Source of the DNA: an uncultured virus (IMG/VR IMGVR_UViG_3300034082_002556)
Lineage: Duplodnaviria; Heunggongvirae; Uroviricota; Caudoviricetes
Length of the DNA stretch: 54,353 bases
Reading direction: 5' to 3' (one strand)
IMG/VR virus record: IMGVR_UViG_3300034082_002556
How positions within the stretch are numbered: position 1 is the first letter of the stretch; the number at the start of each line of letters is the position of its first letter. Below are positions 28,830 through 51,801 of this stretch, piece by piece. Position numbers and translations under genes: made by a program. Below the pieces are notes generated by a model that was given only the letters and a program-made list of their open reading frames with translations, ran no database searches and had not been told where the DNA came from.

Positions 28830-29152
28830 CTAGAGTTTCTGTTACGAGGTATGTCTTACCCTAAGCTGAGTTTAGGCAGCTAATGCGAACTGTGAGTCGT
28901 TTGCGTTTACTTTGTTTTGCTTCTTCGACCGAGTTACCCCAATCCTACGGCTTCTACATTGCCGGACTGTCCATTTCAATACTCTTGACCCAATCGATCC
29001 TGTGTCAGGCCCATCATAAAAAGATTGCTACTATTACTATGAAAATTAATATTGCTAACAATGATGGTAATCTCACGTAATCTCCTTATGGTGGACCTGG
29101 CGGGCACTGCCCCCGCGTCTTGAATCCTTTTCTGTCTACTTCATACAGTCTT
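28830..29152 (-). ncRNA. ssrA: circularly permuted (two-piece) tmRNA
   Basis: T-arm+CAGGTCC-A-CCA (ends 29089) precedes the 5' GGGCCTG (29012); G3.U70 pair; tag ANDSQFALAA* at 28904-28872; outer ends approximate. Confidence 0.92.
29014..29076 (-). CDS. putative 20-aa hydrophobic peptide in the tmRNA intervening segment
   Basis: TAAGGAG-N5-GTG, MRLPSLLAILIFIVIVAIFL*. Confidence 0.45.
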   Translation of the reverse strand: MRLPSLLAILIFIVIVAIFL

Positions 29153-35702: not shown

Positions 35703-35777
35703 TGGTAGTGATAAGTGGGAATGATCCACTCTCCTCGCCTTATGAGGGCGGTACGCATCCATCTACGTCATATCACC
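35703..35777 (-). tRNA. tRNA-Met or Ile2 (CAT)
   Basis: Cloverleaf, CCA, T-loop ATCATTC; identity unresolved. Confidence 0.8.
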
Positions 35778-35878
35778 ATATAGAAACACACTAACGAACC
35801 TGGCTGTGGGGATCGAACCCACTAAATCCCGTAGCACCAGCAGTACTGCTACGATACTGGTTAATGTGTTTTTATATG
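35777..35878 (-). ncRNA. stem-enclosed tRNA-like element (T-arm, no D arm)
   Basis: 19-bp closing stem, hairpin CGTAGCA/TGCTACG, T-arm GTGGG-TTCGATC-CCCAC. Confidence 0.55.
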
Positions 35879-35954
35879 GTAGGGGCACAGGGATTCGAAC
35901 CCTGACCTGGCAGATTAAAAGTCTGCTGTGCTAAACCGTTAACACTATACCCCC
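35877..35954 (-). tRNA. tRNA-Lys(TTT)
   Basis: Cloverleaf, CCA. Confidence 0.92.
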
Positions 35955-35957
35955 ATA

Positions 35958-36034: not shown

Positions 36035-36143
36035 ATGGATCGTAAAGAATTGTCTTTTACGTGCCATCCAGGACCATACGGGGGTCTAGGATGACACTAT
36101 CGTTTCGCTGAACGTTTCATGTCATTTTCCTTAGTAAAAACAT

Positions 36144-36172
36144 ATTATACGACAAATGTCATTTGTTGTCAA
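36144..36172 (-). promoter_or_regulatory. sigma70-type promoter
   Basis: TTGACA-17-TATAAT. Confidence 0.85.
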
Positions 36173-36180
36173 GTCATTTG

Positions 36181-38343: not shown

Positions 38344-38350
38344 ATAAACT

Positions 38351-38425
38351 TGGTGGAGACCGTCGGTATCGAACCGATCTAGACACGAATCTTGCAAGGA
38401 TCCGCCGTAGCCCTCTACTGCCCCC
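38351..38425 (-). tRNA. tRNA-Ala(TGC), atypical D arm
   Basis: G3.U70, anticodon arm, T arm, CCA; shortened D arm. Confidence 0.78.
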
Positions 38426-38510
38426 ATTATAGAAACACACTTAAACAGTCCTTCAACGTTAGTCGCTATCTCCCTTACTATCGGGCGGATCTGTATGTGT
38501 TTCTATAATG
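38425..38510 (-). ncRNA. stem-enclosed spacer element
   Basis: Perfect 15-bp CATTATAGAAACACA/TGTGTTTCTATAATG. Confidence 0.5.
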
Positions 38511-38587
38511 GCTCCGCATCTGGGTAACGATCCCAGCTAATCATTGATTAACAGTCAAGCCCATGCACCATGCTCGGGTTCTGCGGA
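38509..38587 (-). tRNA. tRNA-Asn(GTT)
   Basis: Cloverleaf, G73, CCA, T-loop ATCGTTA. Confidence 0.85.
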
Positions 38588-38596
38588 ATAAAATTT

Positions 38597-39129: not shown

Positions 39130-39349
39130 TTGCTCTGCATCCCCCGGCGGTAATTGTAGTACATCAGAAATTTGGTCAGCAAGTTTTCACTCACCAATTA
39201 GTTTTTCATCACACGTACCTTCCACCCGCTTCCCGACAGGGACCGTTATCGCATTGCTAGCGGCCTTTGGGTTCGAAGACTACCACCCGTACTTGTCACA
39301 GTACTTCTCATCGTGTGGGTCACACTATCCGGAGACACCCGGAACGTTC
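39130..39349 (-). ncRNA. candidate ~220-nt multi-hairpin ncRNA
   Basis: GC-rich non-coding spacer with at least six helices, starting right after the tRNA-Tyr CCA. Confidence 0.55.
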
Positions 39350-39442: not shown

Positions 39443-39517
39443 TGGTACTGGGTACGGGAATCGAACCCGTCTTACAAACGTGAAAGGCTTGTGTCCTAAC
39501 CGATAGACGAACCCAGC
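39443..39517 (-). tRNA. tRNA-Glu(TTC)
   Basis: Cloverleaf, CCA. Confidence 0.92.
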
Positions 39518-39645
39518 GTAAAGAAAAACCCTGAAGTAGTCCAGTCAAGCAACCAAACAGGGCCGTGTTAAAAAGAGAAACTGCTGTTGCAGGACCTAGT
39601 GCCTCAATGAGGGAAGTATCCAGGCGATGCAGTTTCAAAAATGAA

Positions 39646-39855
39646 TTTGAGAGTAGTGCCACCCTGTTATAGGCACCATTCACCCGATTTAACAAGTCCG
39701 GACGGGGTTCGGTACGTCACTTGGGATTCATCCAGCGTGGTAACCATGCTACACCGATCTTCCGATCAGCCGGGAGTCGAACCCGCTTGCCTTCTATTAC
39801 TCAGTACCTTCGAAGAATACTGCATAACGTGACTTCACTTGCTGACACTCTCAAA
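39646..39855 (-). ncRNA. candidate ~210-nt structured ncRNA with embedded T-arm
   Basis: Closing stem TTTGAGAGT/ACTCTCAAA, CGGG-TTCGACT-CCCG, GATC-GGAA-GATC and further helices. Confidence 0.6.
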
Positions 39856-39858
39856 ACT

Positions 39859-39934
39859 TGGCGGTCTTAGGGGGTAACGATCCCCACTCTTACGGCGTGA
39901 CAAGCCGTCGTGCGTCCATGAACACTTTAAGACC
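39859..39934 (-). tRNA. tRNA-Asp(GTC)
   Basis: Cloverleaf, G73, CCA, T-loop ATCGTTA. Confidence 0.88.
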
Positions 39935-39936
39935 AA

Positions 39937-40154
39937 CTATATTAAAAAATACTAAAGGAACCATTGTGCATCTATGTCTACCTATACGACCGTCTCGTAT
40001 AGGCCTGCACGGTCATTACTGCCTACATGCTCCGCCGCTTTTCTGAGCATTACTGCTCGGCTTCATGAACTCTGACTATTGAGCGTGGGCGGCCCCACTG
40101 TCCTCGCACAAAGTTCCTAACGGTGTAGGTAACCTTTAATACATTTTAATATAG
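39937..40154 (-). ncRNA. candidate ~218-nt structured ncRNA
   Basis: Closing stem CTATATTAAAA/TTTTAATATAG plus 9 bp, GTAA-loop hairpins, CCTATACGA/TCGTATAGG. Confidence 0.6.
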
Positions 40155-41793: not shown

Positions 41794-41858
41794 TACATTC
41801 TAAAACACACCATCTGCGGTATTGCAACCCAGATCAGCTTGGTGTATTTTAGAATGTA
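41794..41858 (-). ncRNA. stem-enclosed spacer element
   Basis: 19-bp stem TACATTCTAAAATACACCA/TGGTGTGTTTTAGAATGTA with one G.U. Confidence 0.5.
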
Positions 41859-42008
41859 GTGTGTTTCCACACCACATGATAGGGTCAATACCCTACCCAG
41901 GAGTCTTACTGTCTGTGTTACCGCCACAGAGTTCATGTGTCCTGTCCGCCCGTTTGCTTGTTTTTTTGAGTGCTTTAGCGGGACCTCGTTTCCCAATAGC
42001 ACTAAGTG

Positions 42009-42037
42009 AAAAACCCTGGAGTTTTTAATTCCAGGGT
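42009..42037 (-). terminator. intrinsic terminator / attenuator hairpin
   Basis: ACCCTGGA/TCCAGGGT followed by a T run. Confidence 0.8.
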
Positions 42038-46990: not shown

Positions 46991-48382
46991 TTATTGTCCT
47001 TGTGTTACACTCACACTGCATCCCGAAAGTGTGGCACACTGTTGTGTAATGTTGATGTTTTGTGCTGTGGCACCCTGCTGAACAAGTGTGACATTACTAG
47101 CACCACCTGCATTGGTCAAATTAATTGTGGCTTTGTGACTGCCAGCATCCTTTTGATTGGCACTGACATTATGTCCGTTACCTGTTAAACTTAGATCAAG
47201 GAAACTTCCTGTACCCTGTTGTGAGATATCAAATATGTTGGTACTGCCGTTAATAATACCAAAGAATGTTTTCTCGCCGTTGCCTGTTTGTTTTAGTGTT
47301 CCGTTGTTGTTATTTCCTGTAACATCAACATAGGCAAAGTGCCCACTAGTGGAGCCGCCATCGTTGGCTTGTTTTAGGCTCAATGTGTTGGTACTGCCGC
47401 TGATGTTTAGACCCATATAATGCCCGCCGCTCTCGCTAGCATCTTGTAGGCCTGTTGTAGGATTACGTGCTTGCCAGAGTGAGATATTGTTTGTATTGCC
47501 TGCGATGTTAAATTCAATCAAGTTCTTGCCCAATGTGTCGCCTTGCTTGATGTTGATAGTATTGCTGTCACCATTGATAACAGCATAGTTGGTGCCACCT
47601 AGTCCTGCAATTTTGTTATAGTTACCAGTTTGTTCAACAGTTACAGAGTTACTACTGCTACCAATTTTTTGATCAATGTAAACGCTGTTACCTATTGTAA
47701 GATTATTATCTCTTGTTTTGGCAGCATTTCGTTGTGTAATCTGTGATGCAGTTATGTCACTATTCTCTGGCCAGGTGGGTGCGGCAGTACCCCCACCTCC
47801 TCCAGAGGATGCTGTTTGTCCAGCAGCCAAAGGCGTTGAACTAGGTGGTGTATATGCTTGTAATTGTGCATTTGATGGATATTCTTGTGTTACAGCCCAA
47901 CTACCACTGCTACCGTTGGTGTATCCTTGTCCGGTAGTGATAAGTGTTCCCCACATCCCATTTCCATTGTAGAATATAGCGCCATTGGCTAATGCTCTGA
48001 ACGATCCTGTATTGTTGATTATTTTATATTTTGTACCATCACTGTTAAACACAGCCATGCCATATGTCCCAGGATTGGTTGTGCTAGCAAAGAATCCAAT
48101 ATATCTTCCGTTACTACCGGCATCAGCAGTTTGCGCCGCCGTCCATCTTGCCGCGCTGGCTGTTTGTGTGGAATAATTTATAGATGCATAGATGTAGTTA
48201 AACCCGCTGGCATATAACGTACCTCCCGATACATACCACTGTACATCAAATATCTGTGCTGTACTAAGTTTTAAGTCTGTAATTGCGGCCTGCGAGCATT
48301 TGGAAATACTCATTAGAAATACTGCAACAATTAACCATGCCCAGTATTTTGGTCTTGCTGAATAAAAAATATTTTTAATCAT
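46991..48382 (-). CDS. secreted protein with C-terminal curlin-like repeats
   Basis: Signal-like N-terminus, Gly linker, repeated Q.G..N / I.G..N...I.Q units. Confidence 0.7.
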   Translation of the reverse strand: MIKNIFYSARPKYWAWLIVAVFLMSISKCSQAAITDLKLSTAQIFDVQWYVSGGTLYASGFNYIYASINYSTQTASAARWTAAQTADAGSNGRYIGFFASTTNPGTYGMAVFNSDGTKYKIINNTGSFRALANGAIFYNGNGMWGTLITTGQGYTNGSSGSWAVTQEYPSNAQLQAYTPPSSTPLAAGQTASSGGGGGTAAPTWPENSDITASQITQRNAAKTRDNNLTIGNSVYIDQKIGSSSNSVTVEQTGNYNKIAGLGGTNYAVINGDSNTINIKQGDTLGKNLIEFNIAGNTNNISLWQARNPTTGLQDASESGGHYMGLNISGSTNTLSLKQANDGGSTSGHFAYVDVTGNNNNGTLKQTGNGEKTFFGIINGSTNIFDISQQGTGSFLDLSLTGNGHNVSANQKDAGSHKATINLTNAGGASNVTLVQQGATAQNINITQQCATLSGCSVSVTQGQ

Positions 48383-49551
48383 CTGTAGTTCTGATTGATA
48401 ACAATCTGTCCTATAGTTTTTCCTGTGCCAAAGTTGTAACTGGTAGTCTGCATATCTTGTGTGACAATAACTTGCACTTTGGTATCTAGTGGTATAATAA
48501 CGTTGGTATAGTTTCGGCTATTAGGACTTAGACTCTCATACAACCATCCAACTTGTTGTGTTTCACTTTGATCTTTGAATAGTTTTTTAACATAGGGATT
48601 ATCAGTGTCGCTCAAAGAAGCCACAGCATTGGCTAAAGCGTCTTTATTTCCGGGAGTATCAACGCCAACTTTGGTTCCTTTAGCAGTGTCTTCGTCATCT
48701 TCGTTGGCACTACGACCTTGTTTGTAAGATCTATTACCACCACCACCTTCTTGCTTGCCTGCTACTTGTTGCTTCTCTTGATCCTTGGCATCATCTTTTT
48801 CATCTCGCTTGTCTCTATTATCAGAGCGTTTAGCATCACCTGTAGCCACGGCAGCGGCACGAGCAGCGGCAATGACATTTACTCCGGTAGTTGTTTGTGG
48901 AGGACTGACCATCAAGTTGTTGCCAATGGCCATGCCATTAAGGGCTACAATAACAGCAGGGCTTGGCATGCCGTTTAGTGTTTCAACTAGAGTGGCTTGA
49001 TAAGGACGGTTTAGTTTAACTATGCCTGCTGGTGTTTCTACATCGATAGCACCGCTACCACAGCTAAGACCTTTCAAGTTGATGTTTTGTTCAATTTCGC
49101 AAGTGGGCATCAGCATGATCATACTGGCACCTGTTTCGCTTACTGCCATGACAAAGTCAGTACCGCGAACAGCAATGGCTGCTGTGGGTGTGTTGATTTT
49201 TACGTTTTTGGGATCTTTGGCAATGCTACCTGATACGTAGCGAACTGTGCCTGCGGCTGCCTTGAGTCCCAGCTTACCGGCACCGCTTTTGGGATCATAA
49301 ACAAAATCATCAATAACAAGGCTACTCGACTCAGTAACAGTGACATTTGTATCGTCTTTAAAAACAATCTTGACTCGACCGTTTTTAGTTTCAACTCGGT
49401 CATTGGTTTTGATTTCTGTGCCTTTTGCAATTTGAATTGTATCTTTACCGCGTTTGATGATAGCAGTGCCAGAGGCTTCTGTAACAGAGCCAATGTCCGC
49501 CCATGCTGAACTGGCTATTAGTAAGCCCGCGATAAGAGAGGCAACTCTCAT
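48379..49551 (-). CDS. FecR-domain periplasmic protein
   Basis: Signal peptide, DRVET..G.VKIVFKDDT, TPTAAIAVRGTDF. Confidence 0.88.
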   Translation of the reverse strand: MRVASLIAGLLIASSAWADIGSVTEASGTAIIKRGKDTIQIAKGTEIKTNDRVETKNGRVKIVFKDDTNVTVTESSSLVIDDFVYDPKSGAGKLGLKAAAGTVRYVSGSIAKDPKNVKINTPTAAIAVRGTDFVMAVSETGASMIMLMPTCEIEQNINLKGLSCGSGAIDVETPAGIVKLNRPYQATLVETLNGMPSPAVIVALNGMAIGNNLMVSPPQTTTGVNVIAAARAAAVATGDAKRSDNRDKRDEKDDAKDQEKQQVAGKQEGGGGNRSYKQGRSANEDDEDTAKGTKVGVDTPGNKDALANAVASLSDTDNPYVKKLFKDQSETQQVGWLYESLSPNSRNYTNVIIPLDTKVQVIVTQDMQTTSYNFGTGKTIGQIVINQNYR

Positions 49552-49560
49552 TGTTGCCCC

Positions 49561-50349
49561 TTAGTTCTTCTGCGTTATATTAAACATGCCTGAATTAGAC
49601 ACGCTCTTGATATTGATAACATTGTCAATAGTACCAGTCTGGCTCATTGTAAATGTGTTGCTATTACCTGCAACATCAACCCAGATGCTAGAACCAGTAG
49701 CACCTGTTGAACGTTGATTGATATCAAATGTGTTAGTATCACCAACTACTTTGATAGTTTGACTGTGCTTGTCACCGATTGCATCAATTCGAAAAAGGTT
49801 GCTGTTACCAGTTACATCAACTGCACTTTTTAGATCAGCACCTGTACCACGGAATTGTAGATCATTGCTGTTACCGGTGAACTTCCAGTTTAGGTCAGCA
49901 GCATTACAGCCTGTTAGGGCTGTTCCACCTGTTGAAGCTGTGCCGTATCCACAGGCTGCATCAACTCGATTGCTATCACCAATCTGTTGAATGGTGACAT
50001 TAACTCCTTTACCAGAGCCTGTTGTATCATTGACTGCTTCTAGACTGATGTCATTGTTAACACCAATTTGGCGAGTAACGATTTTTTGATCAATGCCGCG
50101 TAGGTACACAGGTCTGCCGCCAGATCCAGCTTTGTTACCTGTACCATCTTGTGTCATGTTGACGTTGGGATTGTCACCGCTTTGGTCAATAAAGATACGG
50201 TTAGTTGTGGCAATGGCCAGTGCGGCTGTTGCGTTAGGACTAACTGTAGCCATGTTTGGAATCACCGGCGCACTTGGTGCTGTGACCGCAGTCTGTGCCA
50301 TTGCAGGTAATGATACTGCTAGTAAAATTGCTAATATTGTTTTTTTCAT
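49561..50349 (-). CDS. curlin-like secreted protein
   Basis: Signal peptide; QSGDN, QDGTGN, QIGVNN, QIGDSN, GNSN repeats. Confidence 0.7.
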   Translation of the reverse strand: MKKTILAILLAVSLPAMAQTAVTAPSAPVIPNMATVSPNATAALAIATTNRIFIDQSGDNPNVNMTQDGTGNKAGSGGRPVYLRGIDQKIVTRQIGVNNDISLEAVNDTTGSGKGVNVTIQQIGDSNRVDAACGYGTASTGGTALTGCNAADLNWKFTGNSNDLQFRGTGADLKSAVDVTGNSNLFRIDAIGDKHSQTIKVVGDTNTFDINQRSTGATGSSIWVDVAGNSNTFTMSQTGTIDNVINIKSVSNSGMFNITQKN

Positions 50350-50379
50350 TTTTGTTCTCCCGGTTTTTTACCGATGTTA

Positions 50380-51318
50380 TTATTTCCAGAACTGTAGTCT
50401 GGACCAGACACTTTTTTCTTTGCTTCCTTCATCACGCTTTGCGATATCGGACTGTAGTGGAGTGGATGGAGCTTTGGCAGCTCCTTCACGTGGGGTTTCC
50501 TTTTGAACCAACTCATTAGATTTCTCCTTGAATTTCCATAGGCCCGTGCGTTCACCTTTGTTAATCAATTCAATTACTGCTGTTTCAATTGCTGAACGTA
50601 GAGCGTAGTTGCCTGGCTCGTTGAATGTTTGACTTGAGTCAAACTCAAATGCTCGTGTTGCCTGGTTGAAAAATTTCAACGCAGTAGTGCCATCAGCAGT
50701 ACTGAGCAAGTTCTTTTCCACTGTAACAGTGGTTAATACTTCCCCAGTTTGTACACTTACCAAACGTAGGCTGATAACAACCACGTCTTGAGTGTAGGCA
50801 GTTTGTGCGCCGATACCCAACCAACGTGCTCCAGTGCCACCTGTTAGGGTATTGCTGTTGTAATCAATAATGCCACCTTCTAGAATAACACCTGCCATTT
50901 GTAGTGGAGGTAACATCTTGGCATTTGCGCCTTCGTAGATCTCACGTGTCTGTTTGATCATCTGACGTTCTTTTAACAAGTTGTCTAGGCCAACACGTTC
51001 AACAACTGTGAACCATTGACGATTGCCGACTTCTTGAAGACTCTTCATCAAGTATGCTTCAGCACCTTGTGTAACTGCTGTTGAGAACAAGCTCAACGTT
51101 GAACTTGGTTTACGTTGTCCCGTCAGATCTTTGAAACCATATACAGCCACTGTTACTGCTGGACCTGCCGGTGCTGGTATGTTGGCAAAACTTTTGTTGA
51201 TTGTTTCGCTGACACGAGCTTCTTCTTTGATCTTCGTATCTCCCCAAGGACGTACTGTTGAGCAACCTGCCAAGGCTACAACTGCTAGAGCGATCAAGGA
51301 TAATTTAATTGTTTTCAT
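50380..51318 (-). CDS. csgG: curli secretion channel CsgG homolog (lipoprotein)
   Basis: Lipobox LAGC; VAVYGFKDLTGQRKP, STAVTQGA, VVERVGLDNLLKERQ. Confidence 0.92.
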   Translation of the reverse strand: MKTIKLSLIALAVVALAGCSTVRPWGDTKIKEEARVSETINKSFANIPAPAGPAVTVAVYGFKDLTGQRKPSSTLSLFSTAVTQGAEAYLMKSLQEVGNRQWFTVVERVGLDNLLKERQMIKQTREIYEGANAKMLPPLQMAGVILEGGIIDYNSNTLTGGTGARWLGIGAQTAYTQDVVVISLRLVSVQTGEVLTTVTVEKNLLSTADGTTALKFFNQATRAFEFDSSQTFNEPGNYALRSAIETAVIELINKGERTGLWKFKEKSNELVQKETPREGAAKAPSTPLQSDIAKRDEGSKEKSVWSRLQFWK

Positions 51319-51327
51319 TTTTTCTCC

Positions 51328-51801
51328 TTAAAAACCAAAACTAGCAATTGGAACTGTAACAGTGGTCACAGTGCCCTTGGCATCTACCACTGTTAATGTA
51401 ACTCGGTCATTGGCTTTGACCCAGGTTACTGTATTGTTGTCTAATTTAAACGTTCCTGTAGTGGGATTTACACAACCGGGAATTGCTGAACCATCTGCGG
51501 CTGCACAACGATTTTGAAATAAGTTGTTGCTTAACTGTGTAGCCAGTTGGGCATATACTTGGCTTTGGAATAGACTCATGAATCTATTCAACGGTGTGTT
51601 TAGTAAGTCGGCTTCGGCTTTGGCGATGGCGGCTTTTTTGTCTGCTTCGATAGCATCACGTCGTGACTTTTCTATTGAATCAATGGTCAATACGTGACTG
51701 CTAAATCCAATTCCGCTAAAGGCCGGATTTTTAAACTGATGAACAAGCTCGGAGTGAGCAACAATCGGGCACAGTAACAAAACCATTAGGATTTTTTTCA
51801 T
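51328..51801 (-). CDS. csgF: curli assembly component CsgF homolog
   Basis: Signal peptide then ELVHQFKNPAFSG; FMSLFQSQVYAQL; directly upstream of csgG. Confidence 0.8.
   Translation of the reverse strand: MKKILMVLLLCPIVAHSELVHQFKNPAFSGIGFSSHVLTIDSIEKSRRDAIEADKKAAIAKAEADLLNTPLNRFMSLFQSQVYAQLATQLSNNLFQNRCAAADGSAIPGCVNPTTGTFKLDNNTVTWVKANDRVTLTVVDAKGTVTTVTVPIASFGF

What the first reader, a model, noticed from the sequence alone, without database searches (positions are those of the whole stretch)
39646..39855. 210-nt closed RNA with an embedded T-arm and GNRA hairpin
Seen: a 9-bp closing stem; inner GUCAC/GUGAC enclosing CAGUAU/GUACUG, a T-arm CGGG-UUCGACU-CCCG and GAUC-GGAA-GAUC; a 3' GUGCC/GGCAC hairpin. 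Known: T-loops and GNRA loops mediate tertiary contacts in large RNAs. Inference: a compactly folded ncRNA, the best candidate here for a new class.
Basis: partly seen in the sequence, partly recalled or inferred. Interest (0 to 1): 0.7.

Follow-up and report, generated by a model that had tools for sequence, protein, structure and literature searches.

The report
Self-pairing tRNA-mimic RNA of lake phages
A 210-base folded RNA, absent from the standard RNA-family catalogue, sits among the transfer-RNA genes of many very large aquatic phages; it carries a rearranged tRNA-like corner and self-matching loops that suggest copies of it pair with each other.

Summary
Real. The element is on the minus strand (39855-39646), between tRNA-Asp and tRNA-Glu of a jumbo-phage tRNA array. 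It has no Rfam match. I collected 194 distinct full-length homologues, nearly all from aquatic phage or metagenome tRNA arrays. (1) The T-arm and GNRA hairpin belong to a circularly permuted tRNA elbow (T-arm, capped acceptor-like helix, D-arm), the layout of YrlA. Yet the Ro60-binding motif is absent, and no Ro60 gene was found in 9 carrier records. (2) A 3' pseudoknot. (3) A loop palindrome kept in 189 of 194 homologues as 11 different hexamers; its inner pairs cannot form within one molecule, which points to kissing-loop self-pairing. A second loop is also palindromic. Best reading: a stable RNA cut from the tRNA precursor that self-associates and displays tRNA elbows as a decoy or scaffold. 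The fold is shown by covariation; pairing and function are inferred. This scan met what appears to be the same family on another genome (e1-6345754).

The parts
39646..39855 (-). Whole ncRNA, about 210 nt (homologue hits 195-242 nt including short flanks)
39847..39855 (-). P1 closing stem, 5' strand (pairs with 39654-39646)
   Evidence: 98.8% paired, 3 of 9 pairs with two-sided changes
39646..39654 (-). P1 closing stem, 3' strand
39838..39846 (-). P2 5' strand GUCA (pairs with UGAC 39719-39716), a probable bulged G, a C-G pair (39841 with 39720) and a near-invariant AAG; the best-conserved patch, a possible protein site
   Evidence: the C-G pair reads U-A in 8 of 9 divergent loci, one clade
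39716..39725 (-). P2 3' strand with the conserved CCCAAG internal loop
39831..39833 (-). P3 5' strand (pairs with 39732-39730)
   Evidence: U-A/A-U covariation, G=27.6 above null maximum 23.6
39796..39828 (-). P4 hairpin
39808..39815 (-). L4 apex, 8-nt palindrome CUUCGAAG (second possible self-pairing site, or a T-loop)
   Evidence: 191 of 194 have C/G-UUCGAA-G/C, with UUCGAA fixed by most search patterns; 6 of 9 divergent loci have the perfect palindrome GCUGGCCAGC instead and 3 of 9 a near-palindrome containing GCCGGC
39789..39791 (-). P5, anticodon-stem equivalent (pairs with 39736-39734), joining the tRNA-like module to the rest
   Evidence: G=31.8
39771..39785 (-). T-arm, 4-bp stem with UUCRANN loop
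   Evidence: 99.1% paired; loop census
39753..39770 (-). Acceptor-stem-like hairpin, 7 bp capped by GGAA; absent in short subtypes
39740..39752 (-). D-arm-like hairpin with GG in the loop (39745-39744)
   Evidence: GG in 78 of 80 parsed loops, 8 of 88 not parsed; stem sequence varies but stays paired (the parser selects for a stem)
39710..39712 (-). Pseudoknot 5' strand (pairs with 39664-39662 in the last loop)
   Evidence: G=23.2, E=0.03 for 39712-39662; 83.7% paired, 37 two-sided cells
39683..39706 (-). P7 hairpin: 4-bp stem and 16-nt loop
39696..39703 (-). L7 palindrome GUCCGGAC (core hexamer 39702-39697): predicted intermolecular kissing site
   Evidence: third-strongest covariation in the alignment; 189 of 194 perfect hexamers, 11 kinds
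39656..39676 (-). P8 3' hairpin with a conserved AUAA loop that carries the pseudoknot's 3' strand
39859..39934 (-). Upstream tRNA-Asp; the RNA starts 3 nt after its encoded CCA
39443..39517 (-). Downstream tRNA-Glu

Best explanation
A phage-encoded, trans-acting structured RNA. It is transcribed with the tRNA operon and released by the host's tRNA-processing nucleases (inferred from position and shared AU-rich spacers). It folds into a 5' domain ending in a circularly permuted tRNA elbow and a pseudoknotted 3' domain (shown by covariation). Copies pair through the GC-rich palindrome in loop L7 to form a two-fold symmetric kissing dimer (inferred, about 0.8). They may pair again through the L4 palindrome (about 0.45), which would allow rings or chains. 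The assembly most likely works during infection as a multivalent tRNA-elbow decoy or scaffold: it has no anticodon loop and no free CCA end, so it could bind host proteins that recognise tRNA shape, such as tRNA-cleaving defence enzymes or processing and modifying enzymes, without entering translation (inferred, about 0.35).
For: Fold; my tree-simulated null had a maximum G of 23.6, and 13 of the 17 top-ranked column pairs are pairs of my model. Palindrome: 189 of 194 distinct homologues have a perfect hexamer in this stretch, against a mean of 70 and a maximum of 87 when the stretch is shuffled; 11 different hexamers; about 54 hexamer changes on the tree. No search pattern touched this region. 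The alignment-based test, which does not select for palindromes, ranks pair 39702-39697 third, and the next pair in is C-G 58, U-A 13, other 3. The inner pairs would close loops of 2 and 0 nt, impossible within one strand. Self-duplex energies are -7.3 to -11.7 kcal/mol for the 8 hexamers computed. L4 is palindromic in two unrelated sequences. Elbow: order T, acceptor-like, D as in YrlA (PMC4201824 section 6); GG in 78 of 80 parsed D-loops. Context: 117 of 120 have a same-strand tRNA within 400 nt, and 87 of 120 begin directly after a tRNA, of 27 anticodon types. Precedent: GOLLD, ROOL and manA self-assemble through kissing loops.
Against: No experiment shows oligomers, expression as a discrete RNA, or a partner. 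RNA-library contigs cover the element only in part and come from relatives. Five of 194 lack a perfect hexamer (4 keep only CCGG, 1 has a U-G wobble). UUCGAA in L4 fits a T-loop equally well and was fixed by most patterns. In 8 of 9 divergent loci the T-loop is replaced by GCGCAA and the D-arm is lost, so elbow mimicry is not universal and may be only a folding module. The RNA is dispensable in the clade: the model finds it in 1 of 4 near-complete phages chosen by a protein marker. My tree is rough and the RNA looks mosaic, so change counts are approximate.
Confidence: 0.55

Rival explanations
1. An RNA-only self-assembling scaffold or cage like GOLLD, ROOL or manA; the T-loop/D-loop unit is only an internal folding module, not a mimic.
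For: Both palindromes persist in the divergent subtype that has lost the canonical T-loop and D-arm. Same tRNA-array habitat as GOLLD, which occurs separately in L106 and G002.
Against: A 7-bp acceptor-like helix between the T- and D-arms in most members rebuilds tRNA geometry beyond what a T-loop contact needs.
Confidence: 0.25
2. A divergent Y-like RNA (YrlA kind) that binds a host Ro60/Rsr ring and tethers a nuclease.
For: Same permuted T-AS-D order as YrlA. A long closing stem with a conserved bulged helix near the ends. Phage YrlAs exist.
Against: GNCGAAN0-1G is in the 5' 40 nt of 0 of 194. TROVE is absent from 9 of 9 carrier records, 3 of them at least 90% complete, while the control rang in 2 of 14 genomes. 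No RF02553 match over the element. Extra 3' domain with a palindrome.
Confidence: 0.07
3. A ribozyme or processing RNA (for instance acting on the tRNA precursor), with dimerisation secondary.
For: Pseudoknot, multi-way junctions and invariant unpaired nucleotides. Position directly after tRNA 3' ends, as for theta ribozymes (recalled, not checked).
Against: No ribozyme family in Rfam matches. It follows only one of dozens of tRNAs, and which one varies.
Confidence: 0.08
4. A cis-acting riboswitch or leader, or a coding sequence.
For: A 63-codon ORF overlaps it on the plus strand.
Against: 78 of 120 are followed within 30 nt by a tRNA, not a gene. Lengths fall evenly over the three frames (66/66/62), and a stop-free stretch of 60 or more codons occurs in only 32 (RNA strand) and 81 (opposite strand) of 194.
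Confidence: 0.02

Closest known systems
YrlA bacterial Y RNA (RF02553; Chen et al. 2014, PMC4201824)
   Same: Circularly permuted tRNA module in the order T-arm, closed acceptor-like stem, D-arm, on a long closing stem.
   Different: No GNCGAAN0-1G motif, no Ro60 gene found, no model match; about twice as long, with a P4 hairpin, a 3' pseudoknot and palindromic loops.
GOLLD (RF02032) and ROOL RNAs (bioRxiv 2024.12.08.627333)
   Same: Phage or prophage RNAs of unknown function near tRNA islands; self-assemble through kissing loops and other contacts.
   Different: About 550-830 nt against 210. No model match; GOLLD lies elsewhere in the same arrays (L106, G002).
manA RNA (RF01745; bioRxiv 2026.07.01.735769)
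   Same: About 200-nt RNA found in T4-like aquatic phages that forms closed oligomers through kissing loops.
   Different: No match at E<=10. manA sits in 5' UTRs and uses contacts between different loops (L5-L7', L8-L9'); here each loop is self-complementary.
T4 rnaC/rnaD (species 1 and 2 RNAs)
   Same: Stable RNAs of unknown function beside a phage tRNA cluster; rnaC ends in a T-arm-like hairpin.
   Different: 139 and 119 nt. The model scores only rnaC's T-arm region (11.8 bits, positions 64-111), against 112-129 bits for main-type members.
Retroviral dimer-initiation loops (HIV-1 DIS; recalled, not checked by a call)
   Same: A 6-nt GC-rich palindrome in a hairpin loop whose sequence differs between lineages.
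   Different: A genomic signal of an RNA virus, not a separate phage RNA; no homology implied.

Membership tests
YrlA / bacterial Y RNA | T, AS, D stem-loops in permuted order | tested here: met
YrlA / bacterial Y RNA | GNCGAAN0-1G Ro60-binding motif near the 5' end | tested here: not met
   0 of 194
YrlA / bacterial Y RNA | Ro60/TROVE gene within about 4 kb | tested here: not met
   0 of 9 carrier records, 3 near-complete; the host genome is unknown
YrlA / bacterial Y RNA | Match to RF02553 | tested here: not met
YrlA / bacterial Y RNA | Binds Rsr in vivo | not testable with these tools
   needs an experiment
GOLLD / ROOL | Match to the Rfam models; 550-830 nt ornate fold | tested here: not met
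   GOLLD is a separate locus in L106 and G002
GOLLD / ROOL | Encoded in phage tRNA islands | tested here: met
   117 of 120
GOLLD / ROOL | Forms RNA-only homo-oligomers | tested here: inconclusive
   predicted from palindrome covariation only
manA | Match to RF01745 | tested here: not met
manA | Located in 5' UTRs of protein genes | tested here: not met
   78 of 120 followed directly by a tRNA
tRNA / tmRNA | Free acceptor end with CCA, and an anticodon loop or tag frame | tested here: not met
   acceptor-like helix is capped by a loop or missing; ARAGORN calls no gene at 39646-39855
T4 rnaC/rnaD | Homology over the length | tested here: not met

The most novel reading that the evidence does not exclude
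A new class of natural self-assembling RNA: a 210-nt unit with two different self-complementary loops that polymerises into rings or filaments and displays an array of tRNA elbows, serving the phage as an RNA-only anti-defence sponge for tRNA-targeting enzymes. The varying palindrome would also act as a lineage-specific assembly code in co-infection.
Probability: 0.2. Interest if true: 0.92.

Novelty: categorically new. Interest (0 to 1): 0.75.

Why it matters
Few natural RNA-only oligomers are known, and none has a shown function. This one is short, has 194 natural variants, and makes a sharp prediction from sequence alone: one loop's palindrome was exchanged many times without losing self-complementarity. 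It can be tested directly by native gel and cryo-EM with natural swap controls. It joins two ideas so far seen apart, tRNA-elbow mimicry (Y RNAs) and self-assembly (GOLLD, ROOL, manA), and bears on the open question of what the stable non-tRNA RNAs of phage tRNA clusters do.

Tried and rejected
Single-sequence folding is not significant on the minus strand (z -0.50) and marginal on the plus strand (z -1.87). The plus strand is rejected as the RNA because conserved G-U pairs (80 of 88 in P4, 79 of 88 in P5) would be A-C there, and the tRNAs are on the minus strand. blastn against 50,697 cultured phage records gave only short matches, 14% of the query at E 3 in the 30 rows listed of 142. The model found nothing in Melnitz or HTVC008M. 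In GTDB, 34 of 39 pattern matches were chance; 5 were real, all beside tRNAs in MAG contigs of unrelated taxa, probably binned phage DNA, so no host could be named. In one search the 60 lowest-scoring Rfam rows were not shown, so the test was repeated on 13 small loci. A full-length covariance model could not be calibrated; the model covers the 5' domain only, so relatives that keep only the 3' domain would be missed. A motif count over held loci gave no match because the spacing was wrong. RNA runs: 24 listed, all with a share of 0.16 or less. Four were laid; contigs in each cover parts of the element, but contigs cannot show ends, strand or level, and DNA may be present. The Fremin 2023 catalogue could not be excluded: its alignments are in archives that could not be read, and the table part I read holds no sequences.

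Full report
Setting. The window is part of a 72-kb virus record estimated 21% complete. It has 30 ARAGORN tRNAs, a permuted tmRNA and CsgF/CsgG genes. The CsgG-like protein's best cultured matches are the Kyanoviridae myophages Melnitz and HTVC008M at 47% identity. Near-complete relatives are 320-383 kb. The finding lies on the minus strand, starting 3 nt after the CCA of tRNA-Asp and upstream of tRNA-Glu.

Observation. The listed motifs are present, but the sequence alone folds no better than its shuffles. Rfam 15 has no match at gathering score. At E<=10 there is only a weak partial tRNA-Sec hit over the window copy and nothing over the element in 13 homologue loci.

Homologues. A protein-anchored scan gave 80 loci, 5 with the element in reach. 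Together these give 194 distinct full-length sequences. A set of 89 at under 93% identity averaged 63% pairwise identity; 88 of them were aligned, one truncated copy being dropped. The sample is biased by the patterns towards GUGUYAGCAAG, UUCGAA and GGUUC.

Fold. An APC-corrected G-test with a tree-simulated null (60 replicates, maximum 23.6) ranked mostly pairs of my model first: 13 of the top 17. The 58-pair model is 91.3% paired with 41 pairs showing two-sided changes; no shuffle of 500 reached the observed paired share or covariation score, and slid controls give 32-46% paired. The resulting fold is P1 and P2, a conserved internal loop, P3, the P4 hairpin, then P5 opening into T-arm, acceptor-like hairpin and D-arm. 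After P2 come the P7 hairpin and the P8 hairpin, whose loop pairs back as a pseudoknot.

Permuted tRNA elbow. The T-loop reads UUCRANN in nearly all members. It is followed by a hairpin that is often exactly 7 bp, then by a 3-4-bp hairpin with GG in the loop in 78 of 80 parsed sequences (8 of 88 not parsed). This is the order described for YrlA (PMC4201824; passages and section 6 read). It is not a YrlA: the Ro60 motif is at the 5' end of 0 of 194, and TROVE is absent from 9 of 9 carrier records. In 54 of the 191 measured, the distance from T-loop to P2 is short, as in the forms that lack the acceptor-like hairpin. One divergent subtype replaces the T-loop altogether (8 of 9 loci). So the elbow is usual but not universal.

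Palindromes. The pair 39702-39697 is the third-strongest covariation, though only 4 nt lie between its bases. The hexamer is a perfect palindrome in 189 of 194 sequences: GCCGGC 53, UCCGGA 42, CUCGAG 40, CGGCCG 23, CCCGGG 19, GUCGAC 4, CCUAGG 4, and four singletons. The five exceptions keep CCGG. My rule looks for palindromes in a fixed stretch, so the control matters: shuffled stretches pass in 70 of 194 on average, 87 at most. The CGGCCG subtype carries its palindrome in a differently placed loop. The inner pairs cannot form within a strand, and the varying sequence argues against a protein site, so I infer pairing between two copies. Loop L4 is also self-complementary: CUUCGAAG or GUUCGAAC in 191 of 194 (core fixed by most patterns), and GCUGGCCAGC in 6 of 9 divergent loci found without constraining it. 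L4 could instead be a T-loop, and the switch is one evolutionary event, so this second contact is less sure.

Context. Of 120 distinct homologues, 117 have a same-strand tRNA within 400 nt, 87 start right after a tRNA (27 anticodon types), and 78 are followed directly by one. The RNA behaves as a movable cassette of the array, with the same AU-rich spacers as the tRNAs. Release by RNase E and RNase P is inferred from general knowledge of tRNA operons. It is not coding. It is patchy: 3 of 6 near-complete phage records have it, but two of those were picked for having it, so 1 of 4 unbiased. Contigs of four RNA libraries cover parts of it, which does not prove transcription. The host is unknown.

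Mechanism. Shown: a conserved fold, the permuted elbow, the pseudoknot and the maintained palindrome. Inferred: processing from the tRNA precursor, kissing-loop dimers, a possible higher oligomer, and a role as a tRNA-shape decoy or scaffold. The main rival is a purely structural self-assembling RNA like GOLLD, ROOL or manA.

Literature. Nine searches listed no description of this RNA. The library lacks most subscription papers. I read parts 1-2 of 5 of bioRxiv 2026.07.01.735769, and passages of bioRxiv 2024.12.08.627333, PMC12990946, PMC10085705, PMC10690425 (plus supplement searches), PMC9004378, PMC2864571 and PMC9697503. The alignments of the 8,495 DNA-virus candidates in PMC10690425 could not be read, so part of this RNA may be an unnamed entry there; I put that at about one in four. 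Supplements of the two preprints were closed. I had recorded that reading before seeing it, and do not count it as evidence.

Verdict. A real, apparently undescribed phage RNA family with an unusual and directly testable architecture. Novelty is rated for the family and fold; its likely mode of action resembles known self-assembling and tRNA-mimicking RNAs. Interest 0.75.

Noticed in passing
window 39130-39348 (-): Second unnamed structured RNA between tRNA-Tyr and tRNA-Cys; 4 distinct copies in held loci with compensatory stems, many RNA-library contigs over 39206-39300, no Rfam match at gathering score.
   Followed up: partly
window 39940-40135 (-): Third candidate RNA just upstream of tRNA-Asp, below two sigma-70-like promoters (40254, 40351); 3 distinct copies, one distant.
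   Followed up: partly
window 39566-39642 (-): A roughly 75-nt element directly after the finding, with a covarying closing stem and a conserved core; 4 distinct copies.
   Followed up: partly
window 41800-42010 (-): Conserved leader-like element at the head of the tRNA array below a perfect TTGACA-17-TATAAT promoter (42230); 7 distinct copies.
   Followed up: partly
window 36035-36180 (-): Conserved ~100-nt stretch behind a promoter-like sequence, 23 hits in held loci; may include a very short ORF.
   Followed up: no
window 38345-38596 and 35706-35957 (-): tRNA-like sequences missed by ARAGORN (some found by Rfam), and two long hairpins with a shared AAACACA/UGUGUUU motif.
   Followed up: no
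window 28872-29150 (-): Permuted (two-piece) tmRNA with a long AU-rich insert.
   Followed up: no
window 46991-51801 (-): Curli-like module (CsgF, CsgG, curlin repeat, FecR) next to an adenylate-cyclase-like gene, the same arrangement as in phage Melnitz.
   Followed up: partly
L106:1160-1624 and L274:14405-14871: GOLLD RNAs in the same arrays as this RNA.
   Followed up: no
L229 (183-kb contig of a Haliscomenobacter MAG): Carries the RNA inside a phage-type tRNA cluster; probably phage DNA binned into the genome.
   Followed up: no
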